Positions 195 through 43,301 of a DNA stretch of 64,000 nucleotides are shown here, in pieces. The DNA is from Lingula anatina. Taxonomy: Eukaryota > Animalia > Brachiopoda. The position numbers were made by a program, and so were the translations under genes. A model generated the notes under the pieces. That model worked only from the letters and a program-made list of their open reading frames with translations, was not told the DNA's origin and did not search any database. The DNA is taken from NCBI GenBank assembly GCA_051362555.1, contig CM120644.1, positions 2,240,954 through 2,304,953 on the forward strand. Direction: 5' to 3'. Each line of letters begins with the position of its first letter. The first letter of the stretch is position 1.

Positions 195-3100
195 AAAAAA
201 AACAGGGACTAACTTTGAATGTAAAAATTGATTCATCAACCATTGGTAAGTATGGGAAAATTGTTGTTTACTCCAGGAAAATTCATTTTTTGGTCGAAAC
301 GAAGAGTTATTATCCCTTTAATATCTATAATCACAATACTTTGATTTTACCAAACCTTTTTAGAAACATCATGCAACAGCTACATTTGATAAAAAATGGA
401 AGATCTTTTGAAAACATTCTGATGAAAATGTAATTTTCAAGTCGAATCACTAAATCTTCATATTCTAAAAAATCTACTAGTCGTTACAAATAATCACTTT
501 CCGTGGGCGTACGACCAGTGGGTAACGTCGCAGACTGGTTTTAAAAGTAAACTGTTACTCGGTGCAAAATTGTTTTTTAAGTTTAATATATGAGCTGTTA
601 CAGATGTAAAGGACATTGAGGAGCTGGACAAGAAAGTGAAGCTGGAATTCCGATTGCCGGAGGGAGATTTCAGCAAAGATGAAAATGTATTCAATGAAAA
701 CAAAGACAATTTGAGAGCACAGGTACTTTTATATTTTATTATTCTATGAACACATTTGTTTCTTAATATAATAGCTGAAATGAAAAAAAAAGTCCCACAA
801 AGTTGCATGGGAAGATTTATGGAAAATACCTGTATATTGTAAGTAGCAAATACAAGCACTTAAATTGTGTTGACTTACAAATAACAAAAAACGTACACTG
901 AATCAACCAGTGGCTACGTCTGTAGTGTACTACAACTCTACGTGTTTCAGCTGTTTCACCAATTCAATTCGTCCGGCATAGAAGGCCTCAAAGATGTAGA
1001 AATCATCGGTTTTAGGTAAGATGGGGATACGTGATTCTACTTGAAAGTCAAAAAGGCAATCTGCTGCTGTGGATGGTTTAAAAAGTGATCAACAAAAGCG
1101 ATGTATGATCAGTTTAAAGTGTTTTTTGTTTCTATTTTATTACGAAACAAACGCTATTTGACACTGGTGACAGGTAACATTCAAATAACATACATTTTCA
1201 TATAACATACATTTTCAGATTCATTACAGAGTAAATATTGAAATTTGGTGTATATTTTTGTGTTGCCATTCATTCTAAAAACGAAATTTTGTTCACAAGT
1301 TTGTAGTTTCTTGTGTTCTGTCATCTGTTGTCAGTCATTAAGAGTCAGTTTAATTTGTTTCAGAAATGGAAGTATCATCATAGACTACAACTTAATATTT
1401 GCTGTTAAGAGTTTCTTGAAACAAAACGGAACGTCCAACAGCACCCTAGATAAAATCAAAGATGTCCTTATCAATGGCAATACAACATTGGAACTAAAAG
1501 TGAATGGGTCTGTCAGAACGTTTACCCCAGACAGAAATTATAGCGTCGCTGAACTTGAAAAGATAGGTAAGAAATACGAATGTACTATTTACGGGATTTC
1601 CCCTCCGAAATAAAGCTAAATCCAAATGATTTTCTCTTGTACTCACTAACCGTCCTTATAAAAAATACGAACAATATATTTACAACATTGGTCAAAAAGA
1701 TTGTCCCACCCCCAATCCCACGTGCTTTTATTTACAAATGATAGCCTCGCAGGTGTAAATTGTCAAATACATTTTTTTCAGATGCCATATGTAACCTGGA
1801 TAATGGTTTAAAAAAATACAAAATAGAGAATATCCACATTTTGACCCATTTATTCAAAATTGTAACATGTCCCCCTCCAATCCAATGTTTCACTGTGATT
1901 TTCAGCGAGTTAAAGAAATTCCCATGAAATTGAAAAGAGACCGCTAAATATGACCTAATTTACACACAAATAGCATTAAGATGTGGTCGTTAAAGGTCAG
2001 GTATCATATAATGTGTGTATCTACCGCCTACTGTATAAGCTTTCAACAAGGGTAACGATTCTGCTTTGAGAAATATTCACTTCTCTTCCTTACGAGCTTG
2101 GCGGAGTTGGTCCAGATTATTAGGGAATTGGTTCTCCTCTGTATTGCACATTACAATTCACGCACAGGTGCTCAGTAGGCTTAATGCCATGGTGTATATA
2201 TTGTTGCCCCATCCTCAGAACATTGAGTTTCTGCAACAAAACAATCTCCACCGTATATTGTGATTTTTTAATAAAAAAACGAGAAGAGTAAACTACATAG
2301 TTCATAGAGTATCATAGATAAAACTGACACTATGGAAATACTAATTGTCAAATTATTATATTAACAGAGGCTAAGATACAAGATCCATGTATTCTTTACG
2401 ATGACGTGGACATATGTGCCTTTAGAACACAATCACGGGACTACACATGTATTCAAGAGAACCAAGGAGTGCGCTGTAAGCCCAAATGTGAGGGATGGAG
2501 CTGCAGTGGACATGGGTCGTGTATAGTGAGTTATCCCAGCTATGAACCCGAATGCGAGTAAGAACAATTTTCATCTTCGCTCATTAACGCTCATCATAAT
2601 AATATCGCTATATGAAATATATCGAATTAATTTTCCTTTATTTGCTGTTTTTCAGTTTTAATTATATTTCTACTCCGTTAATATACTAATGTACTACATT
2701 AATATGTCTACCCACTTTTCTTCAGTTGTGATACTGACCTCTCTTCTTTCCCTTGGAAATATTATTATGGTGTCAACTGCACAAAAATGCATATGTTAAC
2801 TCGGACCAATCCACCAAAGACGACACCAGCCAGACCAACAGTTAATACCCTGCGTAAGTCACGGGTATATTACTCACATTTCGATCCGCTTTTACCCAGA
2901 TTTATAACAAAATAAAATAAAAATAGAACGAGAAATAAAGTAAAATATAATAATGGCATACTAAAATGGAATCATTAAATTATCATAGTGAAAGTGAACT
3001 ATCATAAATGGTTGCATCCTGTAAATGTTTTCAAGGGAAGGGTAGCTTTAAAACAAGTCCCTTCGAAATCCGGACTTTAGATAATTAACACCCCATTCTC

Positions 3101-4058
3101 ATAGATTAGATCGACCTACATTGGATCGACCTAACTCCCTGGGGGTTCACGCTAAATAGCTGTCAGCCGGGCGGACACGAAAGTTAATTACCCCTTAAAG
3201 CTTGTAGTAGGCGGGGACGGACACTTAAGGGGGATTATCTGACAGTAATCTAGTGAGACTCCCCGCGGTGATAGATCGATCTAAAAGTTGTGAGAACAGA
3301 GCCTAAGCTTCTCAAAATATCGGTAAAATCGTAACGTTTATATAATAGAAAGTTATTATTGTTCATTTTTTTCAGAGGTGAATGTCACTTACGCCGAGAA
3401 TCTGAACAAGACAATTGCGCTAGAACTGCGATTGCTGTCTGGCGAGATTTCTACTTTTGCAAAGCACGCATTAGAAGTGAAACAACAGGTAAAACAGGTT
3501 AAACTAAGAGGCTTAGATAAAAAAGCTATGTATTTGTTTTATTTACTGCTATTTAGCCGCAATAAACATATATCAACTTACAAAAACTACATGCAGGTAA
3601 TCAATGAAATGATTGCAGAATAATACATATTGTAAAGTACAAAAGTTCAGTTCTTAATAACATATGTGCATCATCGCTATTTTAAACAACTGTTACGTAA
3701 AATATATTAATGCTCGAACCCTCCACCCCACCTCGCCGCTACATTGCATGGTTCAATCTACTATAAAGTACCCTGCAAAGTGCTTCTTGTGATAAACCAG
3801 TGCTGATTTTCTGTGCGCCATACCTTTGCTACTGTTAAGGACTGGGTGGTAGTATAGTAATGTGTGCCTCACGACCTAGACTGTACTACTGTAATGAGTG
3901 TTGTGTGTTTGTAACATTTATGATATGCATTGTTTATTGTAATTCTGTCTCATAATTTGGACTGTGCTATCGTAATGAGTATAGTTTGTTTGTAACGTTT
4001 GTGTATTTGTATGTTGTATTGTCTATTGCAATAAAAATAATATCTGTCCAAAAATTAT

Positions 4059-4121
<63 letters not shown>

Positions 4122-7100
4122 TTGTTTTTGGATTATTTAGACATTGACTTATTTTATATTTTATCACGTGTCCATCAATAAACTATCTGCAATTCGCAAT
4201 TTTAGCTGTCAAGCGTATTTAACGAGACTGGTCGGCTAAGAGGAGTTTCAATTAAAGGTTTCAGGTATATATATACATATATGATACGTTATTTCTTGTG
4301 TACTAATTTGTTAAAGAAACAACAGCGTCCCGTTTACATATCACACCTTTTTTAACTTCCGACTTCTTAATTTCATTGTATTCTTATGCAAATGAATAAT
4401 TATGTAAATATATTAACCAAATTAGCCATTAACCTGCGTAAACCTTAAACACCCCTACATGTATTGCTTGGCACTACAGTACATGCCTCAAATGCGCGAA
4501 AAGATCAACGATCAATTTTACCTTCATGTACTTACACGTCATGCTTTGGCTACCCTTGTCTCACTAGACTAACTCTCTAAGGTCTTGGTTGTGAATACAT
4601 CTATTGTTCCTTTATATTTATATTATTTGTCTTTTGCCACAGGAAAGGAATCGTGATAGTGGGTTTTGATTTGGTATACGCATTGAAGAGTTTCCTACAG
4701 ATAAATAAGAGCGCAAATGTTCCGGTTCCCAAAATTGTGGATGATTTGGAAACGATTCTTGACTCTGACATCAACATTGTTGTTGGGAGTAAAAATTACA
4801 CGGTAGATCGCAATTACAGCAAGGATCAAATTAAACATCTAGGTTTGTACTTACACACGCTATGCATGCTTTCTAAAATATTATAAACCAATCTTAGAAA
4901 CATGTATTTGGATTTGTGCACTGCAAAAGCATATAATGAGTGTAGTGATAAGGCTTATGTTATTCATAGTGGGTTACCAGAGTATCTTTGTAGTTTATGC
5001 AGAAAACTCAAAATAACACACACGATGTACATGGCAGATTTTGCTTGTCCTTTTCAGGAGATCAAATAAAAGGTATGTGCAAGTTACCGGGAAGCAGTTT
5101 TGACATTTGTGAAGCAACATCAGAGTGGCAAGATGAATGTGTTTTTCACAGTTCCACGAAGGCTATTAGTTGTGTGAACAAATGTCAGTCCGCTGGAATA
5201 GATTGCAGTGGTAAAGGAAAGTGCAGAGTCACACTCCCGAATTCTAACCCTAAATGCCAGTAAGTCTAAAAACAGAGCTGATGTCGTATTCATCATTTAT
5301 GTAAACTAATCATTTTCAGCGTTTTTTTTTTTTTTTTTTTTTGTTCTGCGTTTTGTTGTTGTGATTGCCATCTGTAATATTAACGAATTCAAAATCAGCG
5401 ATATTATTCATATACCGCCAAATTGAATGCATTCCAAAATGGCAATTTAAATTACCCCACATTGATAGTGATCATAGAGTATAAAAATATTTTTAAATTG
5501 ACTTCCAATTAAATGTTTATCCACAGAAGTCTGTAAAGAATTCTGTCACAAACTGAAATTAGGTATTTCATTCACGTGTGAATTATTACTTTTCATCTAA
5601 AGAACTCAATACACTCAAAATGCTGCTATTATTATTATTATTATTATTATTTCATAACAACCAAGGTGCTTTTCTGAGGAGGAATTCTTCACTGTGATAA
5701 CATATGTGGGAGAACACTGTTCAGAATCCAGCCAAACTCTAACTCAGGCTGGTATCATTATTATCACGGCCGGAGTGGGCGGTTTCTTCCTGCTGGTAGT
5801 CATAGCCCTGACCGTGGGGGTGGTCATCCTTAAGCGAAAGAACAAAGCTACGATAAGCAAGTAAGTCAGTTGGAACCGCATTTAAAAGTGTGAATGGGTA
5901 TTTGATATCAGGCCCGTAGTCTATTACAAACGGTGGGTCTTTTACTGAAAACATGGACCTTTTACGCTGGTGCACCTAGAGCAAAATTTATTCAGAGAGT
6001 ACGCTTTCCCCATCTTCTCTGGCTGCGGGCCTGTGACATTATATATGGATTAGTCCTAAAATGTCTACACCAACATGTAAATATCGTTATCGTCCCCTGT
6101 GCTCCCATAGATTTCTTTAATTGAAGTCACATTGACGGGCTATTAATAAGTATAATGTATAATCTTTGTTTAGTGCAACCCATTATTAACCATTTTTTTC
6201 ATAAAGAAAACGTTTGAGTAACACGATTACAGTTTATAAATTACTCTAACATTCATGTATCGAAATGTGTAGGCAAATAATAAATCTGATGATTGCGGAT
6301 GCAATCTTGTCATAATTAACCTATTTCCTCGTTAAAATCACTGTAAGATAACAATGTCATTGTCAGATACAAGTACCTAGAAGGTCAAGACAGAAACATG
6401 GATATTGAAGACCGATCAACAACATCGTCTGAGGACTCAGGCCAAGAGTCACGTGACATGAAACGCTATGTACACCACCATAACGTGCGTGTGTTTTTTT
6501 TTGTTTTATTAAAAGATTACGGGCTCCATTGCAATAGATGAACGTATGTGAACGTATTGTTTTATTTTAATAGATTGAATGTACTGTGCAGTAGATGGCC
6601 ATTGGCTGTAGGAATATGCATCGCCTTTTACACGTTGCAGTCAAAGTGTTTAGCTATTTTGAACATAATTCAAGTGCCACGTTTCATTATTGACATTGCT
6701 TTATATGAGAACAAAACATATCATTAATTCGATATTGCACATTATTAAACTTGGGAACACTACCTTGTTCAGCTAGGATATGGTGAAAACAACAACCATC
6801 GAAGAGAACACTCCTTTACTTTCTATCAGTGAATTATTTTAAAATTAACTTTTGCCAAGTATGTGCCTCATTGGGGGTGATCGAGTGGCTCCGACATGAA
6901 GTCTTTTTGGACTGCTCACATATGGGTATTTTATGATCTAACCAGACTAGTATTACTCAGGTGAAACTAGAGTCGTGTTTTACAACAGTGATACTAATAT
7001 TTCAGGGCTACGACCCTGATGGTGAGGACTACGTCGGCATAGACCCACATTACACAGGGTTCCAAGTGAGGCTTGATCATATCGACCCTACCATAGATGT

Positions 7101-7401
7101 AAGTTGATTAAAAATATTTTGTTTTTATTTTATTACAAGCAAAACACTCGTTTGGCGTGGTAATGTAGTGTATAAGCTGTATTTGTTTATAATCAATACC
7201 GCCTGACCTACATTTGGTATATCTTGATTCTTAATGTCACATAATGCGTCTGGTATTCAAATCACCTTTCATAATGCTTCACCACATGGTATCCAAGTAT
7301 AAATGAAGACATTTGGGATACTTATTGTGTTGTTTTGTTTTCAGTATTCAATTAGGAGACCGACGGTGTACACCCGTCCCTACGGTCCTCACCACAATTA
7401 A
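195..7401 (+). CDS. Transmembrane SEA/EGF mucin gene 1 (MUC3/12/17-like), 5' part outside the window; two SEA + Cys-rich/EGF modules, TM helix, cytoplasmic tail
   Basis: Phase-consistent GT-AG exons: 195-245 (tentative), 604-722, 951-1015, 1364-1566, 2368-2557, 2726-2853, 3376-3488, 4206-4264, 4643-4842, 5058-5259, 5666-5860, 6367-6484, 7006-7098, 7345-7401 (TAA). SEA1 motif KDVEIIGFR|NGSIIIDY; EGF-like CEGWSCSGHGSC..C.C..YYGVNC; TM GIIIITAGVGGFFLLVVIALTVGVVIL followed by KRKNK; tail GFQVRLDHIDPTIDYSIRRPTV. Several exon lengths (119, 65, 195 nt) are identical in the two downstream paralogs. AATAAA at 7929-7934. Confidence 0.88.
3089..3303. mobile_element. Palindromic MITE (PIF/Harbinger-like) in a gene 1 intron; relatives at ~10990-11102 and ~60563-60799
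   Basis: Imperfect inverted ends (CCCCATTCTCATAGATTAGATCGACCT ... AGATCGATCTAAAAGTTGTGAGAAC) flanked by TAA on both sides; shares TAGATCGATCT and TTTAGCGAGAATCCCC-like motifs with the other copies. Confidence 0.55.
4061..4118. repeat. (TA)n microsatellite
   Basis: Perfect TA run read directly. Confidence 0.97.

Positions 7402-8699: not shown

Positions 8700-8700
<1 letters not shown>

Positions 8701-8764
<64 letters not shown>
8701..8764. repeat. (TA)n microsatellite
   Basis: Perfect TA run read directly. Confidence 0.97.
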
Positions 8765-8767
<3 letters not shown>

Positions 8768-9164
8768 CAATTTAACTCAGTTTATTAAAGGTAACAGAAA
8801 ATGCTGCCTGCAGGTCCTGCTCTGATTATGCTTCAATAAAACCATTAATAATTGAGAAAATTGGAAAAAAAAGAAAACAATAAAACGTTACTCAACTTCA
8901 GCATCATTGTACTTTTTTTTTATCTAAGATCATATATGCTTTCATTGGATACGTGGTTCAATTCCCGTTTTTTTTTTTTTTTTTCATATACTATAGATCT
9001 GCTACTACTACTGCTACTGATGCTGCTCCTGCTGCTGCTATAGAACGGTTTGAAAACGTAATCCGCGTACATTGTGTCTTAATCCTTTTTGGCCTGAAAA
9101 TATTTCAATATTTTAAACTACCATGTTTATGCGTCTATTGATTGAAAGTTTACACATCGTTATT

Positions 9165-17727: not shown

Positions 17728-17730
<3 letters not shown>

Positions 17731-17772
<42 letters not shown>
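17731..17772. repeat. (TA)n microsatellite
   Basis: Perfect TA run read directly. Confidence 0.97.
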
Positions 17773-17776
<4 letters not shown>

Positions 17777-18032: not shown

Positions 18033-21000
18033 ATGTATCTTGTGAGAAAAGTCGTACAATTTGCAACTGTACTTATGATCTATAACCGTCAAAGTGTGGC
18101 TGCAGGGACCTCGAGTACTTCTCTTACAATACCATCGACGTCCACCGTGAAAAATCCAGGTTCCACTGATGCTTCTATTACAGCAAGTAAAAGTGTTACT
18201 TCCGCCGCTGCTTCAACACCACAAACGGCATCGTCTAGAGGGACTAGTGAAAGTGTTACTTCAACCAGTACTATAATACCGTCAACAACAAAACCTACCG
18301 TGATGACTGAAAGTGTGACTTCCACTGCTTCTTCAACATCATCAACAGTTAAGTCTAGTGGGACAAGTACAACTGTGACCCCAACCACTACTTTAACACC
18401 ATCAACAGCAAATTTCACTGGGACAAGTAAAAGCGTAACCTCCGTTGCAATTTCCTTACCACCAACAGCAAAGTCTAGTGGTACAAGTGAGAGCGTGTCC
18501 CCAACCACTACTTTAATACCATCAACAACAAAACCTAGCTTGACGAGTGACGTGGTGACTTCCTCCTCTTCTGCAACACCACCAACAGTATATTTTAGCG
18601 GGACAAGTGAAAGTGTAACACCAGACACTACCATAATACCGTTAATAACAAAAGTTACAGTGACGAGTGAAACTTTGATTTCCACTACTTTTTCAGGACC
18701 ATCGACAACAAATTCTAGAGGTACAAGTGGAAGTCTGACTCCAGATACTACTGCAATACCGTCAATGACAAAAGCTACCGTGACAACTGAAATGTGGACG
18801 TCCACTGCTTCTGCAACACCATTGGCAGCAAATTCCCCTGCTACTTCTACGCACTCAACATCAAAGTCTAGTAGGACAAGTGAAAGCGTGACTTCCTCTG
18901 CTACTTCTACACCATCAACATCAAAGTCTAGTGTTACAAGTGAAAGCGTGACTTCCTCTGCTACTTCTACACCATCAACATCAAAGTCTAGTGGGACAAG
19001 TGAAAGCGTGACTTCCTCTGCTACTTCTACACATTCAACATCAAAGTCTAGTGGGACAAGTGAAAGCGTGACTTCCTCTGCTACTTCTACACCATCAACA
19101 TCAAAGTCTAGTGGGACAAGTGAAAGCGTGACTTCCTCTGCTACTTCTACACCATCAACAGCAAAGTATAGTGGGACAAGTGAAAGCGTGACTTCCCCTG
19201 CTACCTCTACACCATCGACAGCAAAGTATAGTGGGACAAGTGAAAGTGTGACTTCCTCTGCTACTTCTACACCATCAACAGCAAAGTCTAGTGGGACAAG
19301 TGAAAGCGTGACTTCCTCTGCTACTTCTACACCATCAACAGCAAAGTATAGTGGGACAAGTGAAAGCGTGACTTCCTCTGCTATTTCTACACCATCAACA
19401 GCAAAGTATAGTGGGACAAGTGAAAGCGTGACTTCCTCCGCTACTTCTACACACTCAACAGCAAAATCTAGTAGGACAAGTGAAAGCGTGACTTCCTCTG
19501 CTACTTCTACACCCTCTACATCAAATTATAGTGGGACAATTGAAAGTGTGACTTCCATCAATACTTTTTTACCACCAACAGCAAAGACTGGTGGTACAAG
19601 TGAGAGCGTGTCCCCAACCACTACTTTAATACCATCAACAACAAAACCTATCGTGACGAGTGAACCACCAACAGTATATTTAAGCGGGACAAGTGAAAGT
19701 GTAATACAAGACACTACTTTATCATTGTCAACAACAAAACCTACTTACGCTGCATCTTCAACATCATCAACATCAAATTATAGTGGGACAATTGAAAGTG
19801 TAACTCAAAACACTACAGTAATAATGTCAACATCAAAAGGTACAGTGACGAGTGAAAGTGTGATTTCCACTGCTTCTTCAACGCCATCAACAGCAAATTC
19901 TAAAGGGGCAAGTGAAAGTGTGGATTCCACCGCTACTTCAATATCATCCACAACACAATATAGTGGGACAAGTGATAGTGAGAGTACCCCCGCTACTTCA
20001 GTATCATTAACAACAGCAAGGTCTATTGGGACAAGTGAAAGCATGACTTCTGCCGCTACTTCTACAGCATCAACAGCAAAGTCTAGTGGGACAAGTGAAA
20101 GCGTGACTTCCTCTGCTACTTCTACACCATCAACAGCAAAGTCTAGTGGGACAAGTGAAAGCATGACTTTTCCGGCTACTTCTACAGCATCAACAGCAAG
20201 ATCTAGTGGGACAGTGACGAGTGAGTCTTCCCCTGCTACTTTAACACCATCAACAGCAAAGTCTAGTGGGAGAAGTAAAAGTGTGACTTCCACCATTACT
20301 TTTTTACCACCAACAGCAAAGACTGGTGGTACAAGTGAGAGCGTGTCCCCAACCACTACTTTCATACCATCAACAACAAAACCTATCGTGACGAGTGAAG
20401 TGGTAACTTCCTCTGCTCCATCAACACCATCAACAGTAAAGTCTATTGGGACAAGTAAAAGTATGATCCCAACCACTAATTTAACACCATCAACAGCAAA
20501 TTTTACTGGGACAAGTGAAAGCGTAACTTCCGTTTCAATTTCTTTACTATCAACAGTAAAGTCTAGTGGTACAAGTGAGAGTGTGGCCACTCGTGCCATT
20601 TCAACACCACAATCAGCAACGATTACTGGTAGCACAGGGAAAGTGTCTACTGCAGCTACTCCTCCACCGTCTACAGCTGGACTTGGAATCTCTACGACAT
20701 TTAGTTACACCGAAGAACCATCAACTCAAACCGACACTAGGACACCTACTGCCAAACCGAATATAGTTCCGATCATGCCGACGGAAATTACCCTAAGTAA
20801 GTTTGTTTGAAGTTCTTCATTCACGATTGTTTTGATATGCTATTAGAAAAATATTAGCTTTGCAAAACACAGTGACCTTTAATAAGTGGAAAAGTACCTA
20901 TATATAGTTGTTTGAACTTAGTAGTCATGTGATGTAAGTAACGTCCTTTCAACATTTAGCCTCGGTCACAACCGGCCGTACGGGCTCTTACGGGCTGTTT

Positions 21001-24000
21001 GCTACCAACATTTGGATGTTGGGCATGTTCAAAATATTCTACGAATAGCCTGCGAACAGCAAGGCCGCAAGAGATACGCGCGTTGTGCAAGACGCACGTC
21101 GCAAGCAATGAAGGAGCAAGTGCCCTTTGCGTGTTGAGTAAGGCGCACGCAATCACAACTAACGAACAAAGTCGAGAGCACACTGGGAATGCATCGCACG
21201 TGCATCACCCCACGCCTCAGGCCTACCCAACTACCATAATCGGCACCTACGGATCAAGAATAAACCGGTATATCAGACCACACTACCCGTTTTCAAGGAA
21301 TGTGTCAGATCGCATTACAGAGTATCATACCCTATCACAAATTTTGTAAGCCTACCTGTCATCCGGGTATCGCGCCTCGTTTTCGTCAAGTAGGAGTCGT
21401 ATGAATACAACAACATGGAAATCGGCAATCCTCGGCTCATTCCGCCAGCTCCATACTATTGTCGAGTGCGGACACATCGGAGTAGTTCCGAGTAACAATA
21501 TGGCGACAGACGACTCACTGATTATCGTCCAGAAAATATCTAACCCCCGACAGAATATGCTTCCGCTATCAAAATTAGGTCTACTTTTCTAAATGAATAT
21601 ATAAGTTTGCAAGTACCTATATACAAAACATCATTGGCTATGTTCGAACCTAAATTTTATGTTAAAAATTGCGGTATTGTCAGATTTTTAGCATAAACGG
21701 GGAAAATTGCAGCAGCGCATGAATCTAGATGAGATGCACTACTTTCCAACCCCGCTTTAGACCACGGTGGAAGTGAAGAACAAAAGATTCAGTGGATTTG
21801 GTGTAACTCGCATAACCGCACGTCTCGCATGAATGCGTTATAACCCGCAAATGGACCCGTGGTCTAAATAAGATAGATCCCTCGTCAGCGAGGGTTATGT
21901 AACATCCACTCGTGCTTCGCACTCGTGTATGCCACATAACCCTCGCTGACTCGGGGTCTATCTATTACTACGATCATCGCTATCATATCGCGCATCAGGC
22001 AAAATCGGTGTGGTGGCTGATACTCTGTAATGCGATCTGACACACACCTTGAAAACGGGTAGTGTGGTCTGATATACCGGTTTATTCTGGATCCGTAGGT
22101 GCCGAGTCTGGTAGTTGGTTAGGCCTGCGCCTGGTGTATAAAAGAAGTGCTCACGACGCACGCTCGTGTCTTTACAACGAACGTCGACTGTTTAAAATGT
22201 ACAACAATTTTCAAAATTTTCAAATTTTTGCTTAGTTTCTAATATGCCTTCAAATGGCAAGAGAAAGAAGCTTACATAGTAGAAAAAAGGGAGGAGGAGA
22301 AGAAAGAAGAGGAGAACAGGAAGCAAAACTGACGTACGCCGTCAGTACATCACCACAAACGTGTGAGGCAAGTATGAAGCAAAACTGACGCAAAGGGCAC
22401 TATTTCGCCGTGCATTACATTCCCTTCGTAAGTGATGAGTGTGGACCACGTACACGGGAAGCAAGACAAACTCAAGAAATGCCCCTTGCAATTAGCGTCC
22501 CTGCTTGAAAGGACATCTCATGTGGCCCATGCAACTCGCAAGGCAGACTTTCATCTACCTCTACGACCTCCACGGCCTCCACAACACCAAAAAAATCGCA
22601 GGGGACGTACGATCCTGATATATGATGCGTCCAGTTGTGACCGAGGCTTTTTCCATTGTTTTTTACGTTGTACGTATTTGACAGTTTTGTGCCAAGTTAC
22701 ATTTTGAGTTCATACTTTTTTCCTTTTAGAAAACACTGAAATTGAGGAATTAGACAAGAAAATAACATTAGCGTTGAGAATACCGAAAGCAGACTTTGAC
22801 AGTCTCGAAAAAACATTCGAAAATGATAAAACAGATTTGGAAAATCAGGTATTTTCTTCTTCGAGGCCAAAGTGGGTCTATATAACTGTTCCCAACAATG
22901 ACATATATTGGTTAATATTATATTACTTCGATATGTATTTTTTCAGTAATTTACTGTATATTAATGAGATGTTGACGCATAGATACGCTCTATCCCTGTC
23001 TATCTCTGTTCTATTAAATTATTATGATAAGGAAATTTGTCTATTTCAGTTGCTGGCTACGTTTAATGCGTCAGGAGTCGAGGGATTGAAAGGAGTGGAA
23101 ATAATAAGGTTCAGGTAGGTTACTTTGCCCCTCTTTTTGTTTGCTATCTTAACGTCAAAATGCGATAAAAAAAGAAGAAAAAAAAACGCGTAACTACACA
23201 ACACACACAATTCATTTTATTCACATCTTATACCTTTTAGGTACGGAAGCATTATCATTGACTACAACCTTATATTCGCCCTCAAAACTTTCTTAGGGCA
23301 AAATGGAAAAAGTAGTAAAACGCTGAAGACAATCGAGAACGCTCTGGTGAATCGGAACACAAGTTTAAATATAACGGTCAATGGGACTACCTTTTCCACA
23401 GACAAAAAATATAGTGCCTCTCAATTAGCTACAGGTGGGTACTATGATATTGGTGATCAAAACAATAATAACAAAATAGTATATTTTGCCTAGAAGATTA
23501 ACAAAAAGGAACTCACAATATACCGTAATTAATATGCGAATTTTAGAGTACCGTTAGGAATACTCTTTGTGTGGTTGGTATAAATTTCCTGATAAAGAGT
23601 CTCTTGTATGGGAGATTACAAAATTTTACCTTAGGGAGTAACTGATTAAAGGTATTTCACCAATGACAATATGGCTGACAGATACAGAGACTCTCTAGGT
23701 TATGATTTGTCATTTCTACTAGCACTTGATAAGAATAATATATGTGATGGTTTACATCAACATAAATGTGCCAGTGTCCGTTTTGATTACTCTACACATA
23801 CTTAGATCTATACTCCCACATTCAACCTTAAATGTAGCTAAGGTTTACTGGGACATTTATTTAGATTTACTTTTTATGTGAAAGTAGTTATCTTTCCCAA
23901 CACTGCATACACCCGATTAGTACCTCTGCACTTTGTTTGGTTTACCATATGTTTATCGTAGATGTCACTTACATTTGTACCATTGCACAGTAAAATCAAG

Positions 24001-25902
24001 TCTAACGGACCCGTGTATACTCTATGATGATGTCGACATCTGCGAGCTTAGAACACAATCTCGTGATTACTCGTGTGTCCCAGAAACCAAGGGTATACGC
24101 TGTAAGCCGAAATGTGAGGGTCAAGACTGCAGTGGGCATGGACAGTGTATAGTGCGCTTCCCGAAATACGCCGCGGAGTGCATGTAAGTAATTATTGTTG
24201 TGAGGGACATATGTGTAATCTTGTGGCCAGTAAGAGGAAGTAAAGAGGTAGTAGCATCCACCATAGTTCAAGTGTTCCCACACGTGTATGTTTGTAGTCA
24301 AGAACAATATTCGAAAAAAGAATCCGTTCTGCAAAAAACGAATGCGGTGTTTTAAGTTCAATAAAATTAGAGTAACCAATGATAGTGATATCTGTCTAAC
24401 AAAACTTCACAAAGCTTGGAGTAGTCATAAACATCATCTTTAATTTAAACGTCGCAACTTCCAGATGCAAGGTTGAACACACGTTCATCTCGACGACTAC
24501 CTATACTGGACAGACTTGCTCAGAACCCAACCAAACCCTGACCCAAACTGGTATCATCATAATTACCACCACTGTTGGGGGAGCTCTGCTTCTGGCAGTC
24601 TTTGTACTGGTTGCGGCAGTGCTGCTACTCAGGCGAAGTTACATTGCTACGAAAAACAAGTAAGTATAAAGTTGATATATTTCAATTAAATCTATTTTCA
24701 AAAACTATCACTGGCTTAATGTAAAAATGAATTTCAAAAGATATTAAAAAGACAGTGATACCAATGTGCTAGATTTTTTAAACATTCGATAGTTCAAAAT
24801 AAAAAAAACTTAATTTTCAAACCATTCGTGTACAGATATGGGCAGATTGAAAGTCAAGAAAAGCAGTCAGATTTGGATAATCAGTCAAGCTCTTCTTCCG
24901 ACGTAGAAACTACAGGATTCCGTAACAGAGGGAATCATTTTTATCATGAAAACAAGGTAAGTATTTTTTTATAATAAACCATGTTTTGCATAAATCAAAA
25001 ACGTGAAAAATTGAATAAGCAATCAAGTGTCATACAGCATTTTATACATTTTAATTCATTCCAAAATGATGGATCAGTTTATTATCTTGCCAATATCGGT
25101 TTAGTCAAAGGAAATAATGAAAATTTTTCTTCTGAAGCAATATTTCAAAAGTGAAAAGCGAAATTTTCATTTCCTTTTATGCATCATCTCCTGATACATG
25201 TAACATATAATCAATATTATATAACCGAAAAAAAATTAGATGGAAACTTAATGATACGCATTGGGTATACCGGCTCACTAAATTTAAGTATTATTTACCC
25301 TAGAAATTTATAACTGTCAGTATAACTCTTAAAACGGAAACCTGCACGTATGAAAAAGCCAATCATTTAAGTAATATTTTACCATGTATCTGTCTGCAGG
25401 TTAGGTGTTATAGTGTACTATTTGTATATCTACCGATAGTGACTCCTGCAAATGCTTATATGTACTGCGGGTAGTTCTAGTACTTTATAATTTCAGGGTT
25501 ACGACCCTGACGTCGACGACGGCTTGGACCCCAGGCACGCAGGATTCCAAGTGAGGCTCGATCATATCGACCCTACCACAGACGTAAGTTGATAAATAAA
25601 TCTTCAATAGAAGCAATGTTGTATGTAGTGACTATGTAGAGGCAGTGACTACATTTTGGTAGTTCATGTTGTGCATTTACACCTTGCTTTGATTCTCAAA
25701 GTTACTTAATATGTGAGATATCCAAGTTGTCGTCGAAATATTCGTAGGCGTGTTTGACAAGTCCCATCTAACATGAACAAGTGAAGCGCGGAAGACTAAT
25801 CGGGTGTTTTTATATTATTTTCAGTACTCCATTAGGCGGCCAACCGTGTACAGCCGTCCTTACGGTCCTCACCACAAGGAAAACAAACCAAAATATACGT
25901 GA
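18033..25902 (+). CDS. Transmembrane SEA/EGF mucin gene 2 (MUC3/12/17-like): putative signal peptide, ~900-aa PTS domain, SEA, Cys-rich/EGF, TM, tail
   Basis: Exons 18033-20796 (ATG right after ttttcag; MYLVRKVVQFATVLMIY then Ser/Thr/Pro-rich), 22730-22848, 23050-23114, 23241-23434, 23991-24183, 24465-24659, 24836-24956, 25497-25583, 25825-25902 (TGA). SEA motif KGVEIIRFR|YGSIIIDY; TM GIIIITTTVGGALLLAVFVLVAAVLLL then RR; tail GFQVRLDHIDPTTDYSIRRPTV. All intron phases are compatible. Confidence 0.92.
18841..19555 (+). repeat. Coding VNTR: 60-nt / 20-aa unit (ATSTPSTAKSSGTSESVTSS), 11 near-perfect units plus a degenerate 12th
   Basis: Successive 60-nt lines are almost identical. The rest of the PTS exon is made of degenerate versions of the same unit. 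Confidence 0.97.
20958..22648. mobile_element. PIF/Harbinger-like non-autonomous element in a gene 2 intron, carrying a nested MITE
   Basis: TIR AGCCTCGGTCACAACCGGCCG / CGTCCAGTTGTGACCGAGGCT, with TTT on both flanks. Confidence 0.75.
21218..22127. mobile_element. Second member of the CAGG-terminus family (5-bp TSD CGCCT), nested
   Basis: Same ~100-bp TIR as 15465-16014; CGCCT at 21213-21217 and 22128-22132; different and longer interior with an internal hairpin at ~21866-21966. Confidence 0.9.
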
Positions 25903-30929: not shown

Positions 30930-31172
30930 CACACACTGGACAATAGAAGTGTCCCCCCCCCCCCCCCCCCCCCCCCGAATCAGATTAATCAAAGTTTTAA
31001 TGCCTGGTCTACTTATAATGTGACTAATGAGTATAAAACCACTGTACCATGGGATTGTATTGTTGATCTTTTTGTGAAATTTGATGTTAATAAAATGATA
31101 CTATGAACATAGTCATTTATCTCCCCCAGAGTATTGGTTCAGTAGGGGTGCACTTCTATTACCCAGTGTGTG
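30930..31172. mobile_element. Tc1/mariner-type MITE (TA TSD)
   Basis: TA-CACACACTGGACAATAGAAGTG ... CACTTCTATTACCCAGTGTGTG-TA. Confidence 0.75.
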
Positions 31173-31218
31173 TAAATGTAACCTTTAAAACAGTAATGTC
31201 TATTTCCAGAAAGTCAAA

Positions 31219-32674
31219 ATGTGTCCTGGAAATAATATCAACCAGATTGCCCTGTTTTTGCTGATTAGCACAATTCCTGAGGCTTCCAGCAGTACTTCAG
31301 CACCAACGACAACCGTTAGTAAGACAGTTGAATCTGTGACCTCCCCCGCTAATTTGACATCATTTTCAACGAAGTTTACTGGGACAACTCCAACTTATAC
31401 TAATGAATCTACTAGTGCGCCAACCGTTTTACCCCCTGCACCAGCTAGACCACAGGGACCTGGCAAACCTACAGTGCAGATCAAGCCAGTGAAAATTGCT
31501 CTAGGTATAAAGTCGAATATGAAGGATATATATGCTGTCTTGAAGTATCCTTTAATTGCATTATTTATAAAATATCTGCCTCAATATTGAGTTGGATTGA
31601 AAGCTTATATTCCTGTTTATGTGATGTCAAGAAACATTCTAATGCATAATAATGTTTTGCTCATTTAGAAAACACTGAAATTGAGGAATTAGACAAGAAA
31701 ATAAAATTGGCGTTGAGAATTCCGGAAGCAGACTTTGACAATCTCGAAGAAACATTCAAAATTGAAAAGACATATTTGGAAAATCAGGTATAGGGGCTGG
31801 CACATTTTAATATATTTTCTTCTTGGGGTAAAAGCATATATATTGCATTGTTTTCAGCATCCCTCAAAAAACTATGACACTATGTTGCGACGTATATTTA
31901 TTCAGTTATTGCTTTGTATATTATGATACAGTGAGGTATGGTTAAGTATATATCTAGGCGTCTGTCTCTTAAGTCTCCCTCTCTTTCTCTGTTTTACTAC
32001 ATCAGTGCGCATATGGAACTCATCTATTTCAGTTGCTGAAAACTTTTAATGCGGCAAGAGTCGAGGGCTTGAGGAGGGTGGAAATAATAGCGTTTAGGTA
32101 GGTTACTTTGCCCCTCTTTTTGTTTGCCATCAAACAATTTTTTTCACCTAAAAATGTGTTTCGAATCCAATTCAGAATCAATCAATACATTAAGAAAACA
32201 CAAAATAACCTTATAGTCCCTGCATGTTTTCAAATGCAAATGATGTTATAACCATGTGGAATGTTTGCAAAGGAATTAGATAATGGATATCTTTCTTGAG
32301 AAAAGTGATGTATGAAAAAGCAAACCCATAACCAAAGCAACAGACAATTTATTCTGGTCACATCTTATACGTTTTAGGTTTGGGAGCGTTATCATTGATT
32401 ACAACCTAATATTTGCCCTGAAAACATTCTTAGGGCAAAATGGAACTAGTAGTAAAACGTTAAAGACAATCGAAGATGTTCTGTCGAGTCAGAACACAAT
32501 TTTAAACATAACAGTCAATGGAACCACCTTTACCACAGACAGAAATTACTCTGCCTCACAATTAGCTACAGGTGGGTACTATGGTAATGGGAAAAATAAT
32601 AGAATAGTATGGTACTATGCAGAAACAGACGGTAATCAAAGCACCTCACAGGCAGAAGCAATATTTATGTGTAC

Positions 32675-32707
<33 letters not shown>

Positions 32708-38700: not shown

Positions 38701-41700
38701 GGGACTTCAGGTACAGGTAGAGGTTTCAGTTACGTGTTTCATCGGATGATAGCATCACGCCCTAGGTCTAAGCGAGTTGAATAGAAGCTTTTTATCCAAA
38801 CATCCTATTCCTAACTACTGAGTTAGGACAAAGGTCTAGTAACATGCACTGTGCAATTACTATTAAAGGATCAGATGCATACTTGATTGTTTTTCCTCTG
38901 GTGTCGCACGTATGCATCCTTTCTTGAGTGATCTAAAACAAGTCGCTAGTGTACCATGTTTCTCACTGTAGCAAAATATGTTCGACATAATTCTGAACGG
39001 CAGCCGGAAACACAGTAATTGTATAGGCATGCTTTAAGCTTGTTCGAGAGATAATAACAGTCGGGTTTAACAATAGATAGCGAGCTATAGTAAGACCCCC
39101 TCCTCTTTAACTGATGATTTACACTTTTAATTGACCGTACTTTCGTATATTGTATGATCATACAGCCAGACTTCCCCCTGTTGCACGTTGTAGTTGGATT
39201 GTCATTGCGCCTATGTCAATGCACCTCATTTAATTTCAATATTATAATATAAGCATAATATAAGTAATATGTTATTTCCTTATTCCTCTTTCATTATCAT
39301 TCATGTTTTATAAATACTTGAACGCTTGAATGCAGATATTTCAAATTAAAACGTAAGTACATAAATGAATTATACATTTATAAATTAATGCAATAGGAAT
39401 TTTTTGAGACAGATTGATGCTGACGCTCATGCATTTCAACCAAAGAAACAATAATTAGTTCAATATTTGACTGCGGAAATTTCATATAGGATGAAATAAC
39501 TGATAACAAATTTAACTAGCAGTTTGTTAGCAACACTAAAAACCAGCTGCGCGTGCCAAACTAGTGAACAAAAGGACAGTTCGCTTCGCGTGGCACGCCT
39601 TAGCACGGGTTTAGCCTCTTCAATCTATAATCCTATCGCCGCAACAAACAATAGGGACCTTCTGGCTGATGTATCCTGCTGTTGATTACACCTAGTTACA
39701 GCGGATTGTCACGCTCGCGCTGGGCCACAGAAACCGGCGTCATGGGGTTCACTCGTATTAAGTATTGTGTTATTCCACCTAAGCTATTGTGTTTGTGCGT
39801 TCGAATTTTGAAGGGATTTATACGGCCCTCCATTGTTTGTCCGCCCCCTTCTATTCACAAGATAGGGATTAAAACATTTCGAACGATGTTACACCGGTGT
39901 ACAACGGAAACAAAATTATTCCGACCACTGTACATGTGTATCACAGAGTCTGTGTGCGATGCCATTGTTGTGCTGTGATTGGCTAGTTGAGTCACGTGAA
40001 GCCCTACTGTAGCGCCCTCGCGTATCGCGTGAATGCTGCGCATTTCTGGCCATGAGAAAAGTTCCGTCGCTAACACTAGTACAATCATAAGTAAAATGTT
40101 TGTTATTTGAATTGAACCGTCCGCCAGTTAATATATTTAAACAAACACCAATAGAACTTTAACAGACAGTGATGATGAAGCATAATTTTATTTTGATAAT
40201 TCAACAGTAGCTTAAAGCTCAAGCTATTTTTTCTCATTCGATTCCTAAACAGTTGTGTTGAAAATCAGGAAACGCAACAAGATTTTGATAATCAACCACG
40301 TTCATCTGACGAGACACAGGAATCACGTTACATGAAACCATATCATAATCATGAAAACATGGTAAGTCTTTTTCATTTTGAAGAATAATTTGCATAAATG
40401 AGAAAATAAAAGTATTAACATATATAATTATAAATAGTAAGTAAATAACGACTGTACTATGATTAAATTTCTACATTTTTATTCATTCCCATATGGTGGA
40501 TTATTATCTTATATAGCAAATTGATTAAGTCATGCCAATGAAACCTCTTGCGAAACAATATTCTTAAGCTGAAAATGTTAAAAATATTTTCGCTTGTATG
40601 AATGATCTACAGACTTGACATTTAATATGGAATTTTTTAGTTTTAAAGGTATACCTAGGTGAAAATGCGTTCTTTTTTCAAAATATTCAGATTTCATATA
40701 AGACATCTGACTGGAGAAGTGTGAAGTCAGGTGTGTCGCTGCCAATAAACTGACTACCAAGTCTGTTGCACTGCTGCCTTGTGTAATATGCAATGATTTA
40801 ATTGGGCAGTGCTCATTTGGGCTGGTCAAAGCTTGGCTTTGGCAAAGCATGGTTCTGTCAAAAAAGTATCCATATATTGGCAAATACTGCATGGAAGAAT
40901 TTGAAAGTTTGCATGCAAGCGGTTTTGCAGTGCGTAAAACGAGTTAAGCAGTGTTTTACAAAATTGTTTAGCTGTGCCAGAATGGCGCGAAAAACACAGA
41001 CATTGCCAGACAGATTATTGTGTCAAACGGAACGGTCTACGCAGTTTTATAGAGTTATACCCAGTTTGATGCACTACACAGAGACCACGCCCAATGCATC
41101 GACGTCTTACCACCAGGGTACAGGACTCATTGTACTTCAGGATATGCTGCTGCAATAAAACCAAAACCACCCAGGCCGTTTTGAATGAGGGGCAAATTGC
41201 ATCGACGTCTTATCACCAGGGTACAGGACTCACTGTCCTTCAGGATATGCTGCTGCAATAAAACCAAAAGCACCCAGGCCGTTTTGAATGAGGGGCAAAT
41301 TGCCACCAAATCTTGTTTTTCAAGGCTCTTAGCAAACACCAAACTGGTTTCAGCAGGTTAGAATTCCAGGCGACCCATGAGGAAGCCACAGTAAACAGAA
41401 AAGCACCCTAGTCAGTTTCTTTAATGAATTAGGGACCATGACAGTTTCTGGGTAAAACACTGAAACCGCGTGGCTTTCTTTATTGAGGTCAGATTTCACC
41501 TGTACCGCCAAACTGGTCAAAACAGAGTTTACAGACTTTCTATAGAGGCCTACGACTAAGCGTGTGCCACTTATTAAGTGACTAGGGTCATTTACAGCGT
41601 CAGTATTTGGAGTGGATACCACATCGGTGCAAAAACACCAATGGTAGGCTTCGATGAAAACCTGAACCAGATCAAATAAAGGAATAATCTGGGAACCACT

Positions 41701-43035
41701 TGACTATTATTTGATAGGGGGCACCTTAGGAACGATTTTAGGCTGCAGGATGAGCTTGCCGGTTCACACAGAGAACTTAAAATAGCAGATGACTAACTGA
41801 ACCAAGGGAATGAGTAGCTACTTTGGTCATCAAAATCGCCATATTTGAACCACATAGACAATATGTGGGTAGGTTATTTTTCGCCGAATCAACGGCCTGC
41901 GTGTCCTACATCAAAACTGAACCAAACCGGACAACTGTTAACCTTATTCTAGAATTTTATTCCAGATTAAACTCTAAAAACCTATCATAAGCAATGCCTT
42001 GCGGCTTGAAAGCTCTGGTAGCAGCAAGATGAGGTCAAGCGTAACAGAGACTGTTGCTGTGACTAGACACTGACATGGGGGGGGGGGGCTTTGTGGGGCG
42101 TGTAACTCTTTAAAAGACAATAATTATGAAAATAGGAATATCCAAAACATCGCTTTCAATGGTTGTCGTATGACTTAAAATAGGCGATGTATTTTTGTTT
42201 GCTTCACTGACGAATTCAGTTAATGAACTGATGTCACAATGACATCGAAGAGATTATCAAAAGTTATTAAACACGATTTTAATCATTATTTTCATTTATC
42301 AGTCAGCAAAATAGGAAAAACACTGATGAATTATGTTTTGGAAAAAAATATTCCATATTAAATGTCAACTCTGTAGTTAAAAGCAACAGGATACTACCGC
42401 ACAGCCAATAAAATACAAATTACACGCTGCGACTCACTAGCTCTTGAACTTTCTAAATACAGATACCTTATAATGTAAATTATCTTTAGCGACCACATGC
42501 GTTATATCCATGTTGAATATTGTTTACTCTAGAAAATATGATAGTCATGAAAATATAAACTCGGAAATATATGGAAAATTACCAATCATGGGAGTCGTTT
42601 ATTATTAATATATTTTTTTTTATCTGGCCATATGTAGAGCGAAGCGTGATAGCTGATATTTATAAACGTGTCACTATAGTGACTTCTGAAACTAATGTAG
42701 GCCTACACCACGCCTATACAACTGGAGGTGCCTATTTAAGCTTGCAGCTTCCTAATTATTCAAGGGTTACGGTCTTGATATTGAGGACGACGTGGACCAT
42801 CAGTACGCGGCACTCGAAGTTAGGACTGATTACACCGTCCCTACAATAGACGTAGGTTAATCAGTATTTAATGTGTTACTTAACACTTTAATCACAATGT
42901 TTTGTGTAATATCACAAGTGAAGCTGCTGCCGTTCTACCGTGTACCTTGATTTGTTATCTAGGGTGTTTTTACATGTGAATGTATACAGCGCTGATACAC
43001 GTGTTGCACGATTTTAAGAGATAATCATTATTACC

Positions 43036-43074
<39 letters not shown>

Positions 43075-43301
43075 AATAATAATATATGTATGCACACACT
43101 CATTATTGTTGTTATTGTTGGGATATAGTTCATTCCATGGTGACATTTATCCACATTACGCAACAGCATGAGATAACTAGTAGCGTGACATGGACGGCTA
43201 ACCATGTTATTATTTGTTTTCAGTACTCAACCATAGGGCCGACTGTGTACACTCGCCCTTACGTTCCTCACCACATGAGAAGGAACGCAAGATTTACGTA
43301 A
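31219..43301 (+). CDS. Transmembrane SEA/EGF mucin gene 3 (short PTS, diverged cytoplasmic tail)
   Basis: Exons 31219-31504 (acceptor at 31209; MCPGNNINQIALFLLIS aligns with the gene 2 N-terminus), 31669-31787, 32033-32097, 32378-32571, 32743-32935, 33210-33404, 40253-40361, 42765-42851, 43224-43301 (TAA). SEA motif RRVEIIAFR|FGSVIIDY. No stops or frameshifts; most exon lengths equal those of gene 2. Confidence 0.88.
33768..33990. mobile_element. Tc1/mariner-type MITE, same family as 30930-31172
   Basis: TA-CACACAATATACCATAGAAGTGTCACCCCT ... AGGGGATGACACTTCTATTGTCCATTGTATG-TA. Confidence 0.7.
34000..34490 (-). mobile_element. Degenerate non-LTR retrotransposon fragment (Rex1/Babar-like RT C-terminal part)
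   Basis: Minus-strand translation, with stops and frameshifts, gives TTLVGLVTDNDES, LNVAKAK*MIVGFRR, VEEFKLLG, RLYF and IESVLAYGI, typical of this RT clade. Confidence 0.65.
35755..39590. mobile_element. ~3.8-kb segment bounded by imperfect inverted repeats (unclassified decayed DNA transposon)
   Basis: CGAACTATCCTTTTGTTCAACAGCTTCGCGCGTGCAGCTGATT (~35760-35802) is the inverse of AACCAGCTGCGCGTGCCAAACTAGTGAACAAAAGGACAGTTCG (~39541-39583). It lies in an intron that is only 176 bp in gene 2. Exact termini and TSD were not resolved. Confidence 0.5.
40610..42373 (+). mobile_element. Decayed Tc1-family DNA transposon in a gene 3 intron
   Basis: TA-CAGACTTGACATTTAATATGGAAT ... ATTCCATATTAAATGTCAACTCTG-TA. 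Remnant transposase motifs include WSSKSPYLNHIDNMW (Tc1 consensus WPSQSPDLNPIENLW) near 41825 and LQDE. Many stops; internal 103-bp tandem duplication at 41095-41300. Confidence 0.88.

What the first reader, a model, noticed from the sequence alone, without database searches (positions are those of the whole stretch)
604..43301. Tandem trio of MUC3/MUC12/MUC17-type membrane mucins in an apparently invertebrate genome
Seen: three same-strand paralogs with a PTS-SEA-Cys/EGF-TM-tail layout. The SEA site reads K[GD]VEIIxFR|xGSIIIDY. Knowledge (from memory): human MUC3 has KGVEILSLRNGSIVVDY, MUC3/12/17 also form a tandem cluster, and SEA membrane mucins are usually regarded as a vertebrate innovation. 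Inference: if the host is a mollusc or other invertebrate, this mucin type is much older than assumed. Unlike MUC3/17, no EGF was found between PTS and SEA in genes 2 and 3.
Basis: partly seen in the sequence, partly recalled or inferred. Interest (0 to 1): 0.75.

Follow-up and report, generated by a model that had tools for sequence, protein, structure and literature searches.

The report
Gut-mucin relatives in a lamp shell
Three neighbouring genes of the lamp shell Lingula encode predicted cell-surface mucins whose outer SEA module and a short inner-tail motif match the vertebrate gut mucins MUC3/12/17, so this mucin line likely predates the split of vertebrates from molluscs and brachiopods, although invertebrate SEA mucins in general were already reported.

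Summary
Real. Three same-strand paralogs with clean GT-AG exon models; gene 1 is 97% identical to a Lingula anatina RefSeq protein, so the host is a brachiopod. The SEA domain, missed by Pfam, is confirmed by a custom profile and a confident model (Z 9.3 to MUC16 SEA). Corrections: gene 1 has two SEA-Cys modules and no mucin array inside the window; gene 3's stalk is short; the SEA cleavage motif and the EGF intron are shared with IMPG2, so they do not diagnose MUC3. New evidence does: a 21-residue cytoplasmic motif, absent from the search query, is shared with 4 of 5 vertebrate MUC3/17-type hits and 5 of 12 named mollusc hits, not with the one IMPG2 tested. Trees put the Lingula copies in their own clade, so the cluster arose independently of 7q22; they cannot settle MUC3 versus a MUC3+IMPG2 ancestor. 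No upstream EGF, no PDZ end, and no RNA support in the runs laid. SEA membrane mucins were already reported in sea anemones; a MUC3-type line in spiralians and the tail motif were not found in print in 10 searches.

The parts
604..1566 (+). Gene 1, SEA domain 1 (exons 604-722, 951-1015, 1364-1566; Gly-Ser site just after the phase-2 intron); 5' end of the gene lies outside the window
   Evidence: custom SEA profile 41.0 bits; model of the RefSeq counterpart, mean pLDDT 89.8, Z 9.3 to MUC16 SEA
2368..2853 (+). Gene 1, Cys-rich module 1 (four-Cys unit plus EGF-like unit; exons 2368-2557, 2726-2853) ending in a short Pro/Thr linker
3376..4842 (+). Gene 1, SEA domain 2 (exons 3376-3488, 4206-4264, 4643-4842); Gly-Ile at the cleavage position in this window, Gly-Ser in the RefSeq protein
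   Evidence: custom SEA profile 23.5 bits; Z 5.7 to MUC16 SEA5 in the whole-protein model
5058..5860 (+). Gene 1, Cys-rich module 2 and transmembrane helix (exons 5058-5259, 5666-5860)
6367..7401 (+). Gene 1, cytoplasmic tail (exons 6367-6484, 7006-7098, 7345-7401); the last two carry the conserved tail motif
6773..6832 (+). Gene 1, alternative last exon used by the RefSeq model; it would remove the tail motif
18033..20796 (+). Gene 2, first coding exon: weak signal-peptide-like start and 921-aa Ser/Thr/Pro stalk with about 29 copies of a 60-bp repeat (18833-20585)
22730..23434 (+). Gene 2, SEA domain (exons 22730-22848, 23050-23114, 23241-23434)
   Evidence: custom SEA profile 35.5 bits
23991..24659 (+). 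Gene 2, Cys-rich module and transmembrane helix (exons 23991-24183, 24465-24659); phase-2 intron between EGF Cys4 and Cys5
24836..25902 (+). Gene 2, cytoplasmic tail (exons 24836-24956, 25497-25583, 25825-25902) with the conserved tail motif
31219..31504 (+). Gene 3, first coding exon: signal-peptide-like start and short Ser/Thr/Pro stalk (95 aa)
31669..32571 (+). Gene 3, SEA domain (exons 31669-31787, 32033-32097, 32378-32571)
   Evidence: custom SEA profile 35.1 bits
32743..33404 (+). Gene 3, Cys-rich module and transmembrane helix (exons 32743-32935, 33210-33404)
40253..43301 (+). Gene 3, predicted cytoplasmic tail (exons 40253-40361, 42765-42851, 43224-43301); tail motif degenerate
   Evidence: linkage across the 6.8-kb intron not shown by RNA

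Best explanation
These are three tandem Lingula genes for predicted single-pass membrane mucins with a SEA domain, a Cys-rich EGF-like module and a conserved tail motif, which likely descend from the same bilaterian gene as vertebrate MUC3/12/17 and would, like them, hold a sugar-coated stalk on the surface of an epithelium. Shown: exon models, domain order, SEA fold of the model, Gly-Ser site in three of four SEA modules, the tail motif and its match to vertebrate MUC3/17-type tails, and a Lingula-only clade for the copies. Inferred from MUC1/MUC17 (PMC13643018 section 8): the SEA domain cleaves itself at Gly-Ser during folding, the halves stay bound, and force sheds the O-glycosylated stalk while the membrane half stays. 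Inferred from conservation alone: the tail motif binds an unknown cytoplasmic trafficking or cytoskeletal partner that is older than the PDZ end of the mammalian proteins. The three copies vary stalk length (921 aa, under 95 aa, unknown) and SEA number.
For: (1) SEA is real: a profile from 14 non-Lingula SEA domains scores the four modules 41.0, 23.5, 35.5, 35.1 bits against a best of 10.2 in 1000 shuffles; the model's three best matches among 48,161 chains are MUC16 SEA domains (Z 9.0-9.3, rmsd 2.5-3.5, 100-115 aligned). (2) phmmer over 1.84 billion representatives with the RefSeq form of gene 1 gave 28 hits; of the 20 looked up by name, 10 were molluscs, 3 vertebrate mucin-3A/17-like, 2 uncharacterized shark/ray proteins and 1 each Lingula, amphioxus mucin-17-like, Macrostomum, Xenia and IMPG2. 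(3) That query lacks the tail motif, yet a matrix from genes 1 and 2 finds it near the C-terminus of 4 of 5 rows of the vertebrate MUC3 clade (Ascaphus, Hyla, Latimeria, unnamed P0032; p=0.0005 each, 2000 shuffles) and 5 of 12 named molluscs (p<=0.004), not in IMPG2 (p=0.29). The reciprocal matrix from the four vertebrate tails finds genes 1 and 2 in the same register (p=0.0005). One off-target window reached the same score in 26,200 scanned. Human MUC17 ends in the peptide IQRPQVMTTSF (PMC6705488 passages), which fits the motif's second half. (4) For Lingula paralog P0033 the three nearest Atlas clusters by features are mucin-12, mucin-12 and mucin-17-like (0.95, 0.94, 0.93), IMPG2 0.90. (5) Ten Cys between SEA site and membrane in Lingula, most molluscs and all 5 MUC3-clade rows, 13 in IMPG2. 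(6) Intron between Cys4 and Cys5 of the membrane-proximal EGF, reported for MUC3/12/17 (PMC1618406 passages). (7) AU test rejects Lingula+IMPG2 (p=0.025) but not Lingula+MUC3 (p=0.21).
Against: The free trees of the extracellular module join MUC3 with IMPG2 and amphioxus against the spiralians (88/86, 81/88), with no outgroup to root them; pairwise scores to IMPG2 (29-54 bits) overlap those to MUC3-type rows (32-61 bits). Only one IMPG2 and no MUC13, HEG1, vap or MUC1 sequence was available. The Cys4-Cys5 intron is also in IMPG2, MUC4, meprins and ErbB ligands. The first four of the ten Cys are spaced differently in MUC3-type rows. No EGF before SEA and no class I PDZ end. The motif was missed in the Carcharodon model, amphioxus, Macrostomum, Xenia and 7 of 12 molluscs, and gene 3's copy is not found by the vertebrate matrix. 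Four poly(A)/RNA runs of 3 studies, tissue unknown, gave essentially no depth on the exons of genes 2 and 3 in 20700-40500, so no splice junction was seen. Pfam finds no SEA in the RefSeq protein.
Confidence: 0.68

Rival explanations
1. One bilaterian SEA-EGF-TM mucin gave rise to both the MUC3/12/17 line and IMPG2 after deuterostomes split off; the Lingula genes are equally related to both, and the tail motif is simply an old trait that IMPG2 lost.
For: Both trees join MUC3, IMPG2 and amphioxus against spiralians; pairwise scores do not separate MUC3 from IMPG2; one Patella hit is auto-named IMPG2; the EGF intron is shared by all.
Against: It still makes the membrane-mucin line pre-vertebrate, so it differs from the best reading only in exclusivity. 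Support for the deuterostome branch is unstarred and the tool warns of long branches meeting. Cys count and tail are MUC3-like.
Confidence: 0.22
2. Independent assembly: spiralians and vertebrates each joined a PTS stalk, a SEA domain, an EGF and a membrane anchor by exon shuffling, and the tail likeness is convergent.
For: SEA is a mobile module found with fibronectin, DOMON and MAM domains among the hits; SEA and Cys exon blocks are bounded by phase-1 introns; identity to vertebrate modules is only 20-33%; mucin stalks arise repeatedly (PMC9417175, abstract start and passages).
Against: The 21-residue gap-free tail motif matches in both directions, at the same place near the C-terminus, in proteins selected without it.
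Confidence: 0.07
3. Genes 2 and 3 are silent or decaying copies, or the models join exons that are not one transcript.
For: No exon coverage in four RNA runs; the EGF-exon search returned only gene 1's protein; gene 3's tail motif is degenerate and follows a repeat-filled 6.8-kb intron.
Against: Open frames, conserved exon sizes and phases, synonymous excess in the Cys exon; RefSeq supports gene 1; tissue of the RNA runs is unknown.
Confidence: 0.03

Closest known systems
Vertebrate MUC3A/MUC3B/MUC12/MUC17 membrane mucins (PMC9578598, PMC13643018; database rows Ascaphus XP_075434101.1, Hyla XP_056425078.1, Latimeria XP_064408886.1)
   Same: Single-exon PTS stalk (gene 2), SEA with Gly-Ser site, Cys-rich EGF-like module with the Cys4-Cys5 intron, one TM helix, 75-105-residue tail with the shared motif; tandem gene cluster.
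   Different: No EGF before SEA; different spacing of the first four Cys; no class I PDZ end; gene 1 has two SEA modules; cluster duplicated independently; downstream neighbours are EF-hand genes, not TRIM56.
IMPG2 (row Petaurus XP_068921393.1)
   Same: SEA site of the same pattern, similar membrane-proximal EGF and intron, TM helix; two SEA domains as in gene 1.
   Different: Two full EGF units, no tail motif (p=0.29), AU test rejects a Lingula+IMPG2 clade (p=0.025; one IMPG2 sequence only).
Unstudied mollusc SEA-Cys-TM proteins (Patella XP_055959240.1, Mercenaria XP_053385640.1, Solemya KAL5005576.1, Sinanodonta KAL3854452.1, Lymnaea, Physella) and other Lingula paralogs (XP_013399712.1, XP_013399713.1)
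   Same: Stalk directly followed by SEA, ten-Cys module, TM; second half of the tail motif in 5 of 12; tandem copies in Patella caerulea and Sinanodonta by locus tag.
   Different: Separate branches of the tree; carry only automatic names such as uncharacterized, IMPG2, Mucin-13 or mucin-5AC-like.
Sea anemone 'mucin1-like' SP-PTS-SEA-TM proteins (PMC9080433)
   Same: An invertebrate membrane mucin with SEA.
   Different: As described, no EGF between SEA and membrane; assigned by domain order only, with no tree; its partial 'mucin3A-like' sequence was not analysed there and was not seen here.

Membership tests
SEA domain (PF01390 fold) | Ferredoxin-like SEA fold and sequence profile | tested here: met
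   Custom profile 23.5-41.0 bits against 10.2 for shuffles; Z 9.3 to MUC16 SEA. Pfam itself does not hit.
SEA-type membrane mucins | PTS-rich tandem-repeat stalk N-terminal of SEA | tested here: met
   Gene 2: 921 aa, 59% PTS, one exon; gene 3: short stalk; gene 1: not visible in the window.
SEA-type membrane mucins | Gly-Ser-[Val/Ile]-Val-Val type cleavage motif (PMC13643018 section 8) | tested here: met
   GSIII, GSIII and GSVII in gene 1 SEA1, gene 2 and gene 3 (Ile for Val); absent from gene 1 SEA2 in this window.
SEA-type membrane mucins | Signal peptide, single TM helix, cytoplasmic tail | tested here: met
   TM hydropathy 2.6-3.1, tails 100-104 aa; N-terminal hydrophobic stretch clear in gene 3, weak in gene 2 (hydropathy only).
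SEA-type membrane mucins | Autoproteolysis, O-glycosylation and apical epithelial display | not testable with these tools
   Needs bench work; RNA runs laid gave no exon coverage.
MUC3/MUC12/MUC17 subfamily | Two EGF-like domains flanking SEA (PMC13643018) | tested here: not met
   No Cys upstream of SEA in genes 2 and 3, against 4-9 in the four vertebrate rows checked.
MUC3/MUC12/MUC17 subfamily | Membrane-proximal EGF with an intron between Cys4 and Cys5 (PMC1618406) | tested here: met
   All four Cys modules; not exclusive, IMPG2 has it too.
MUC3/MUC12/MUC17 subfamily | Class I PDZ-binding C-terminus (PMC9578598, PMC13643018) | tested here: not met
   Ends are HHN, KYT and RFT.
MUC3/MUC12/MUC17 subfamily | Groups with MUC3/12/17 in a tree | tested here: inconclusive
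   Not in the free trees; not rejected (p-AU 0.21); unrooted, thin outgroups.
MUC3/MUC12/MUC17 subfamily | Shared cytoplasmic tail motif (a feature found here, not a textbook one) | tested here: met
   Genes 1 and 2, both directions, p=0.0005; gene 3 degenerate.
MUC3/MUC12/MUC17 subfamily | Same intron positions in SEA and tail; ACHE-TRIM56 synteny | not testable with these tools
   No vertebrate gene structure available; only the downstream neighbours are in the window and they are EF-hand genes.
IMPG1/IMPG2 | Two full EGF units before the membrane and grouping with IMPG2 | tested here: not met
   Ten Cys against 13; Lingula+IMPG2 rejected at p=0.025 with a single IMPG2 row.

The most novel reading that the evidence does not exclude
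MUC3/12/17 are the vertebrate branch of a glycocalyx mucin already present in the last common bilaterian ancestor, and its most conserved intracellular feature is an undescribed 21-residue motif, F-x3-L-x2-[IV]-[DN]-[PT]-x7-R-P-x-[VI], just upstream of the PDZ end, which docks an unknown apical-trafficking partner; Lingula gene 1 could switch it off with an alternative last exon.
Probability: 0.45. Interest if true: 0.72.

Novelty: new variant of a known kind. Interest (0 to 1): 0.52.

Why it matters
[quoted passage not shown] A MUC3-related line in brachiopods and molluscs would move the brush-border glycocalyx back to the bilaterian ancestor and give mollusc models for it. The practical gain is the tail motif: work on the MUC17 tail centres on the PDZ end and a 2026 review calls tail signalling incompletely understood (PMC13643018); a motif kept for over 500 million years (divergence time recalled) names residues to mutate in human MUC17.

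Tried and rejected
No genome was held for this window. Pfam on 24 single exons or ORFs and on the RefSeq protein found no SEA or EGF above cut-off: a sensitivity limit, not absence. PDB sequence search with one exon gave only chance matches. Whole-protein model of gene 1 was weak (pLDDT 61) and its fold searches were dominated by RRM-like domains and the TM helix; Foldseek on the better model had no match at E<=0.001, though SEA structures filled ranks 2-5. No RNA holder was listed for gene 2. Four contig runs laid in the hope that they were RNA covered introns and showed no splice joint. Gene 1 was never laid. The alignment-based homolog search was crowded out by Ser/Thr-rich words and returned 8 proteins. 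Exon boundaries of human MUC3/17 were not in the supplements of PMC9578598 (search of all 10 files, files 2 and 7 read, part 1 of 5 of file 4). Lang 2007 and Pei and Grishin 2017 are not held; they and the unread supplements of PMC9080433 may bear on priority. Ten literature searches listed no paper on Lingula or mollusc SEA mucins or on the tail motif; subscription journals are largely outside that library. Rejected as evidence for MUC3 identity: the SEA-site motif, the cluster of three, and the EGF intron.


Full report
Observation. The window (about 36% GC) holds three + strand paralogs. Exon models snapped to AG/GT give open frames of 579 aa (gene 1, 5' end cut by the window), 1271 aa (gene 2) and 441 aa (gene 3), with matching exon sizes and phases: SEA in three exons (phases 1-0-2-1), a Cys exon ending in phase 2, an EGF-end plus TM exon, and three tail exons. 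Gene 1 repeats the SEA-Cys block, so it has two SEA modules and shows no PTS array in the window. Gene 2 has a 921-aa single-exon stalk, 59% Pro/Thr/Ser, with about 29 copies of a 60-bp unit. Gene 3's first exon is 95 aa. Genes 2 and 3 are 84% identical over the module, gene 1 SEA1 about 55% to both.

Host. The neighbouring EF-hand gene is 84% identical to a Lingula anatina protein, and gene 1 matches RefSeq XP_013388111.1 at 519 of 533 residues. The host is therefore Lingula, a brachiopod. The RefSeq model independently supports the first 11 exons but ends in another last exon, present in the window at 6773-6832. It also has Gly-Ser where the window has Gly-Ile in SEA2.

Is it SEA? Pfam says nothing. 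A profile built from 14 non-Lingula SEA domains hits all four modules at 23.5-41.0 bits, against 10.2 at best in 1000 shuffles. An AlphaFold2 model of the first module of the RefSeq protein (mean pLDDT 89.8) has MUC16 SEA structures as its three best matches (Z 9.0-9.3). The domain is a divergent SEA.

Relatives. phmmer of the RefSeq protein against 1.84 billion representatives gave 28 hits at E<=0.001. I looked up names for 20 of the 27 other than the query: 10 molluscs, 3 vertebrate mucin-3A/17-like, 2 uncharacterized cartilaginous-fish proteins, and one each of Lingula, amphioxus mucin-17-like, Macrostomum, Xenia and IMPG2. Most carry SEA by Pfam. Several mollusc rows have a PTS stalk directly before SEA, as in Lingula. 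So the Lingula trio is one sample of a widespread, unstudied spiralian family.

MUC3 or generic? A better mark came from the tails. Genes 1 and 2 carry a 21-residue motif across their last intron. The search query lacked it, so the hits were not chosen for it. Of 33 sequences, 3 had no tail and were not scored. A matrix from genes 1 and 2 found the motif near the C-terminus in 4 of the 5 rows of the vertebrate MUC3 clade (p=0.0005 each; the Carcharodon model, whose tails stop or run on earlier, was a miss), in 5 of 12 named molluscs, in 1 of 4 other unnamed rows and, first half only, in Lingula paralog P0033; not in IMPG2, amphioxus, Macrostomum or Xenia. The reciprocal matrix from the four vertebrate tails found genes 1 and 2 in the same register (p=0.0005) but not gene 3. 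Human MUC17 ends in IQRPQVMTTSF (PMC6705488 passages), which fits the second half. The Atlas ranks mucin-12 and mucin-17-like clusters first for P0033 (0.95-0.93; IMPG2 0.90); for gene 1's first module alone it gave only weak SEA leads (0.77).

Trees. On the SEA-Cys-TM module (29 rows, mixture model; 20 rows after dropping 9 long or redundant ones) the Lingula modules form their own branch (95/95 with Macrostomum inside; 100/99) and the vertebrate MUC3-type rows theirs (98/96; 100/95). MUC3, IMPG2 and amphioxus stand together against the spiralians at unstarred support, without a root. Lingula+IMPG2 is rejected (p-AU 0.025), Lingula+MUC3 is not (0.21) but is not shown. The cluster of three is thus a Lingula expansion and not a counterpart of human 7q22.

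Differences from MUC3/12/17. No EGF before SEA, no class I PDZ end, different spacing of the first four Cys. By these tested features I do not file the genes as members of the MUC3/12/17 subfamily; they are likely relatives that would work like it.

Mechanism. By analogy with MUC1/MUC17 (PMC13643018, section 8 read, other passages): entry into the secretory pathway, self-cleavage at Gly-Ser, O-glycosylation of the stalk, display at an epithelial surface, shedding under force. All of these steps are inferred. A role of the tail motif in trafficking or anchoring is inferred from conservation only.

Expression. Not shown. Codon differences between genes 2 and 3 favour synonymous change in the Cys exon (12 against 4) and less so elsewhere.

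Prior knowledge. [quoted passage not shown] PMC9080433 (passages) already reports SP-PTS-SEA-TM proteins and a partial mucin3A-like sequence in sea anemones, so the broad claim is not new. Ten searches (listings only) showed nothing on spiralian MUC3-type mucins or the tail motif; two key papers were not held. PMC3056801, PMC9564314 and PMC9417175 were seen as passages and added nothing decisive.

Verdict. A real, partly mis-described cluster; a new variant of a known kind; about 0.68 that it shares a specific ancestor with MUC3/12/17 and works alike, about 0.9 that the membrane-mucin line is pre-vertebrate in either of the first two readings. Interest 0.52.

Noticed in passing
window 6773-6832: In-frame alternative last exon of gene 1, used by RefSeq; it would give a tail without the conserved motif.
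   Followed up: partly
window 4643-4660: Gene 1 SEA2 has Gly-Ile in this window but Gly-Ser in the RefSeq protein: a possible cleavable versus non-cleavable polymorphism, or an assembly difference.
   Followed up: partly
window 45632-46168, 53918-54475, 58304-58861: Three tandem EF-hand genes, sarcoplasmic calcium-binding protein-like; the search with the first returned only 4 Lingula proteins, and the nearest has a signal-peptide-like start.
   Followed up: partly
window 52667-53908 (-): LINE-type reverse transcriptase fragment directly before the second EF-hand gene, whose ORF lacks the start of the exon seen in the other two copies; likely an insertion into the gene.
   Followed up: no
window 61511-63298 (+): 595-codon ORF with no Pfam family above cut-off, flanked by an inverted repeat (60991-61050 and 63760-63820); possibly a DNA transposon.
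   Followed up: no
window 34500-40000: The long intron of gene 3 is filled with multi-copy sequence by contig depth.
   Followed up: no
P0006, P0033 (Lingula LOC106165897, LOC106165899): Two further Lingula paralogs on one other scaffold; P0033 stops matching halfway through the tail motif, near where the window's genes have their last intron, so its last exon may be mis-annotated.
   Followed up: partly
P0024, P0039, P0040; P0031, P0038: Patella caerulea and Sinanodonta also hold nearby copies by locus tag, so tandem expansion of this mucin recurs in spiralians.
   Followed up: no
P0011: The amphioxus 'mucin-17-like' model looks like two fused PTS-SEA-Cys-TM genes, without the tail motif.
   Followed up: partly
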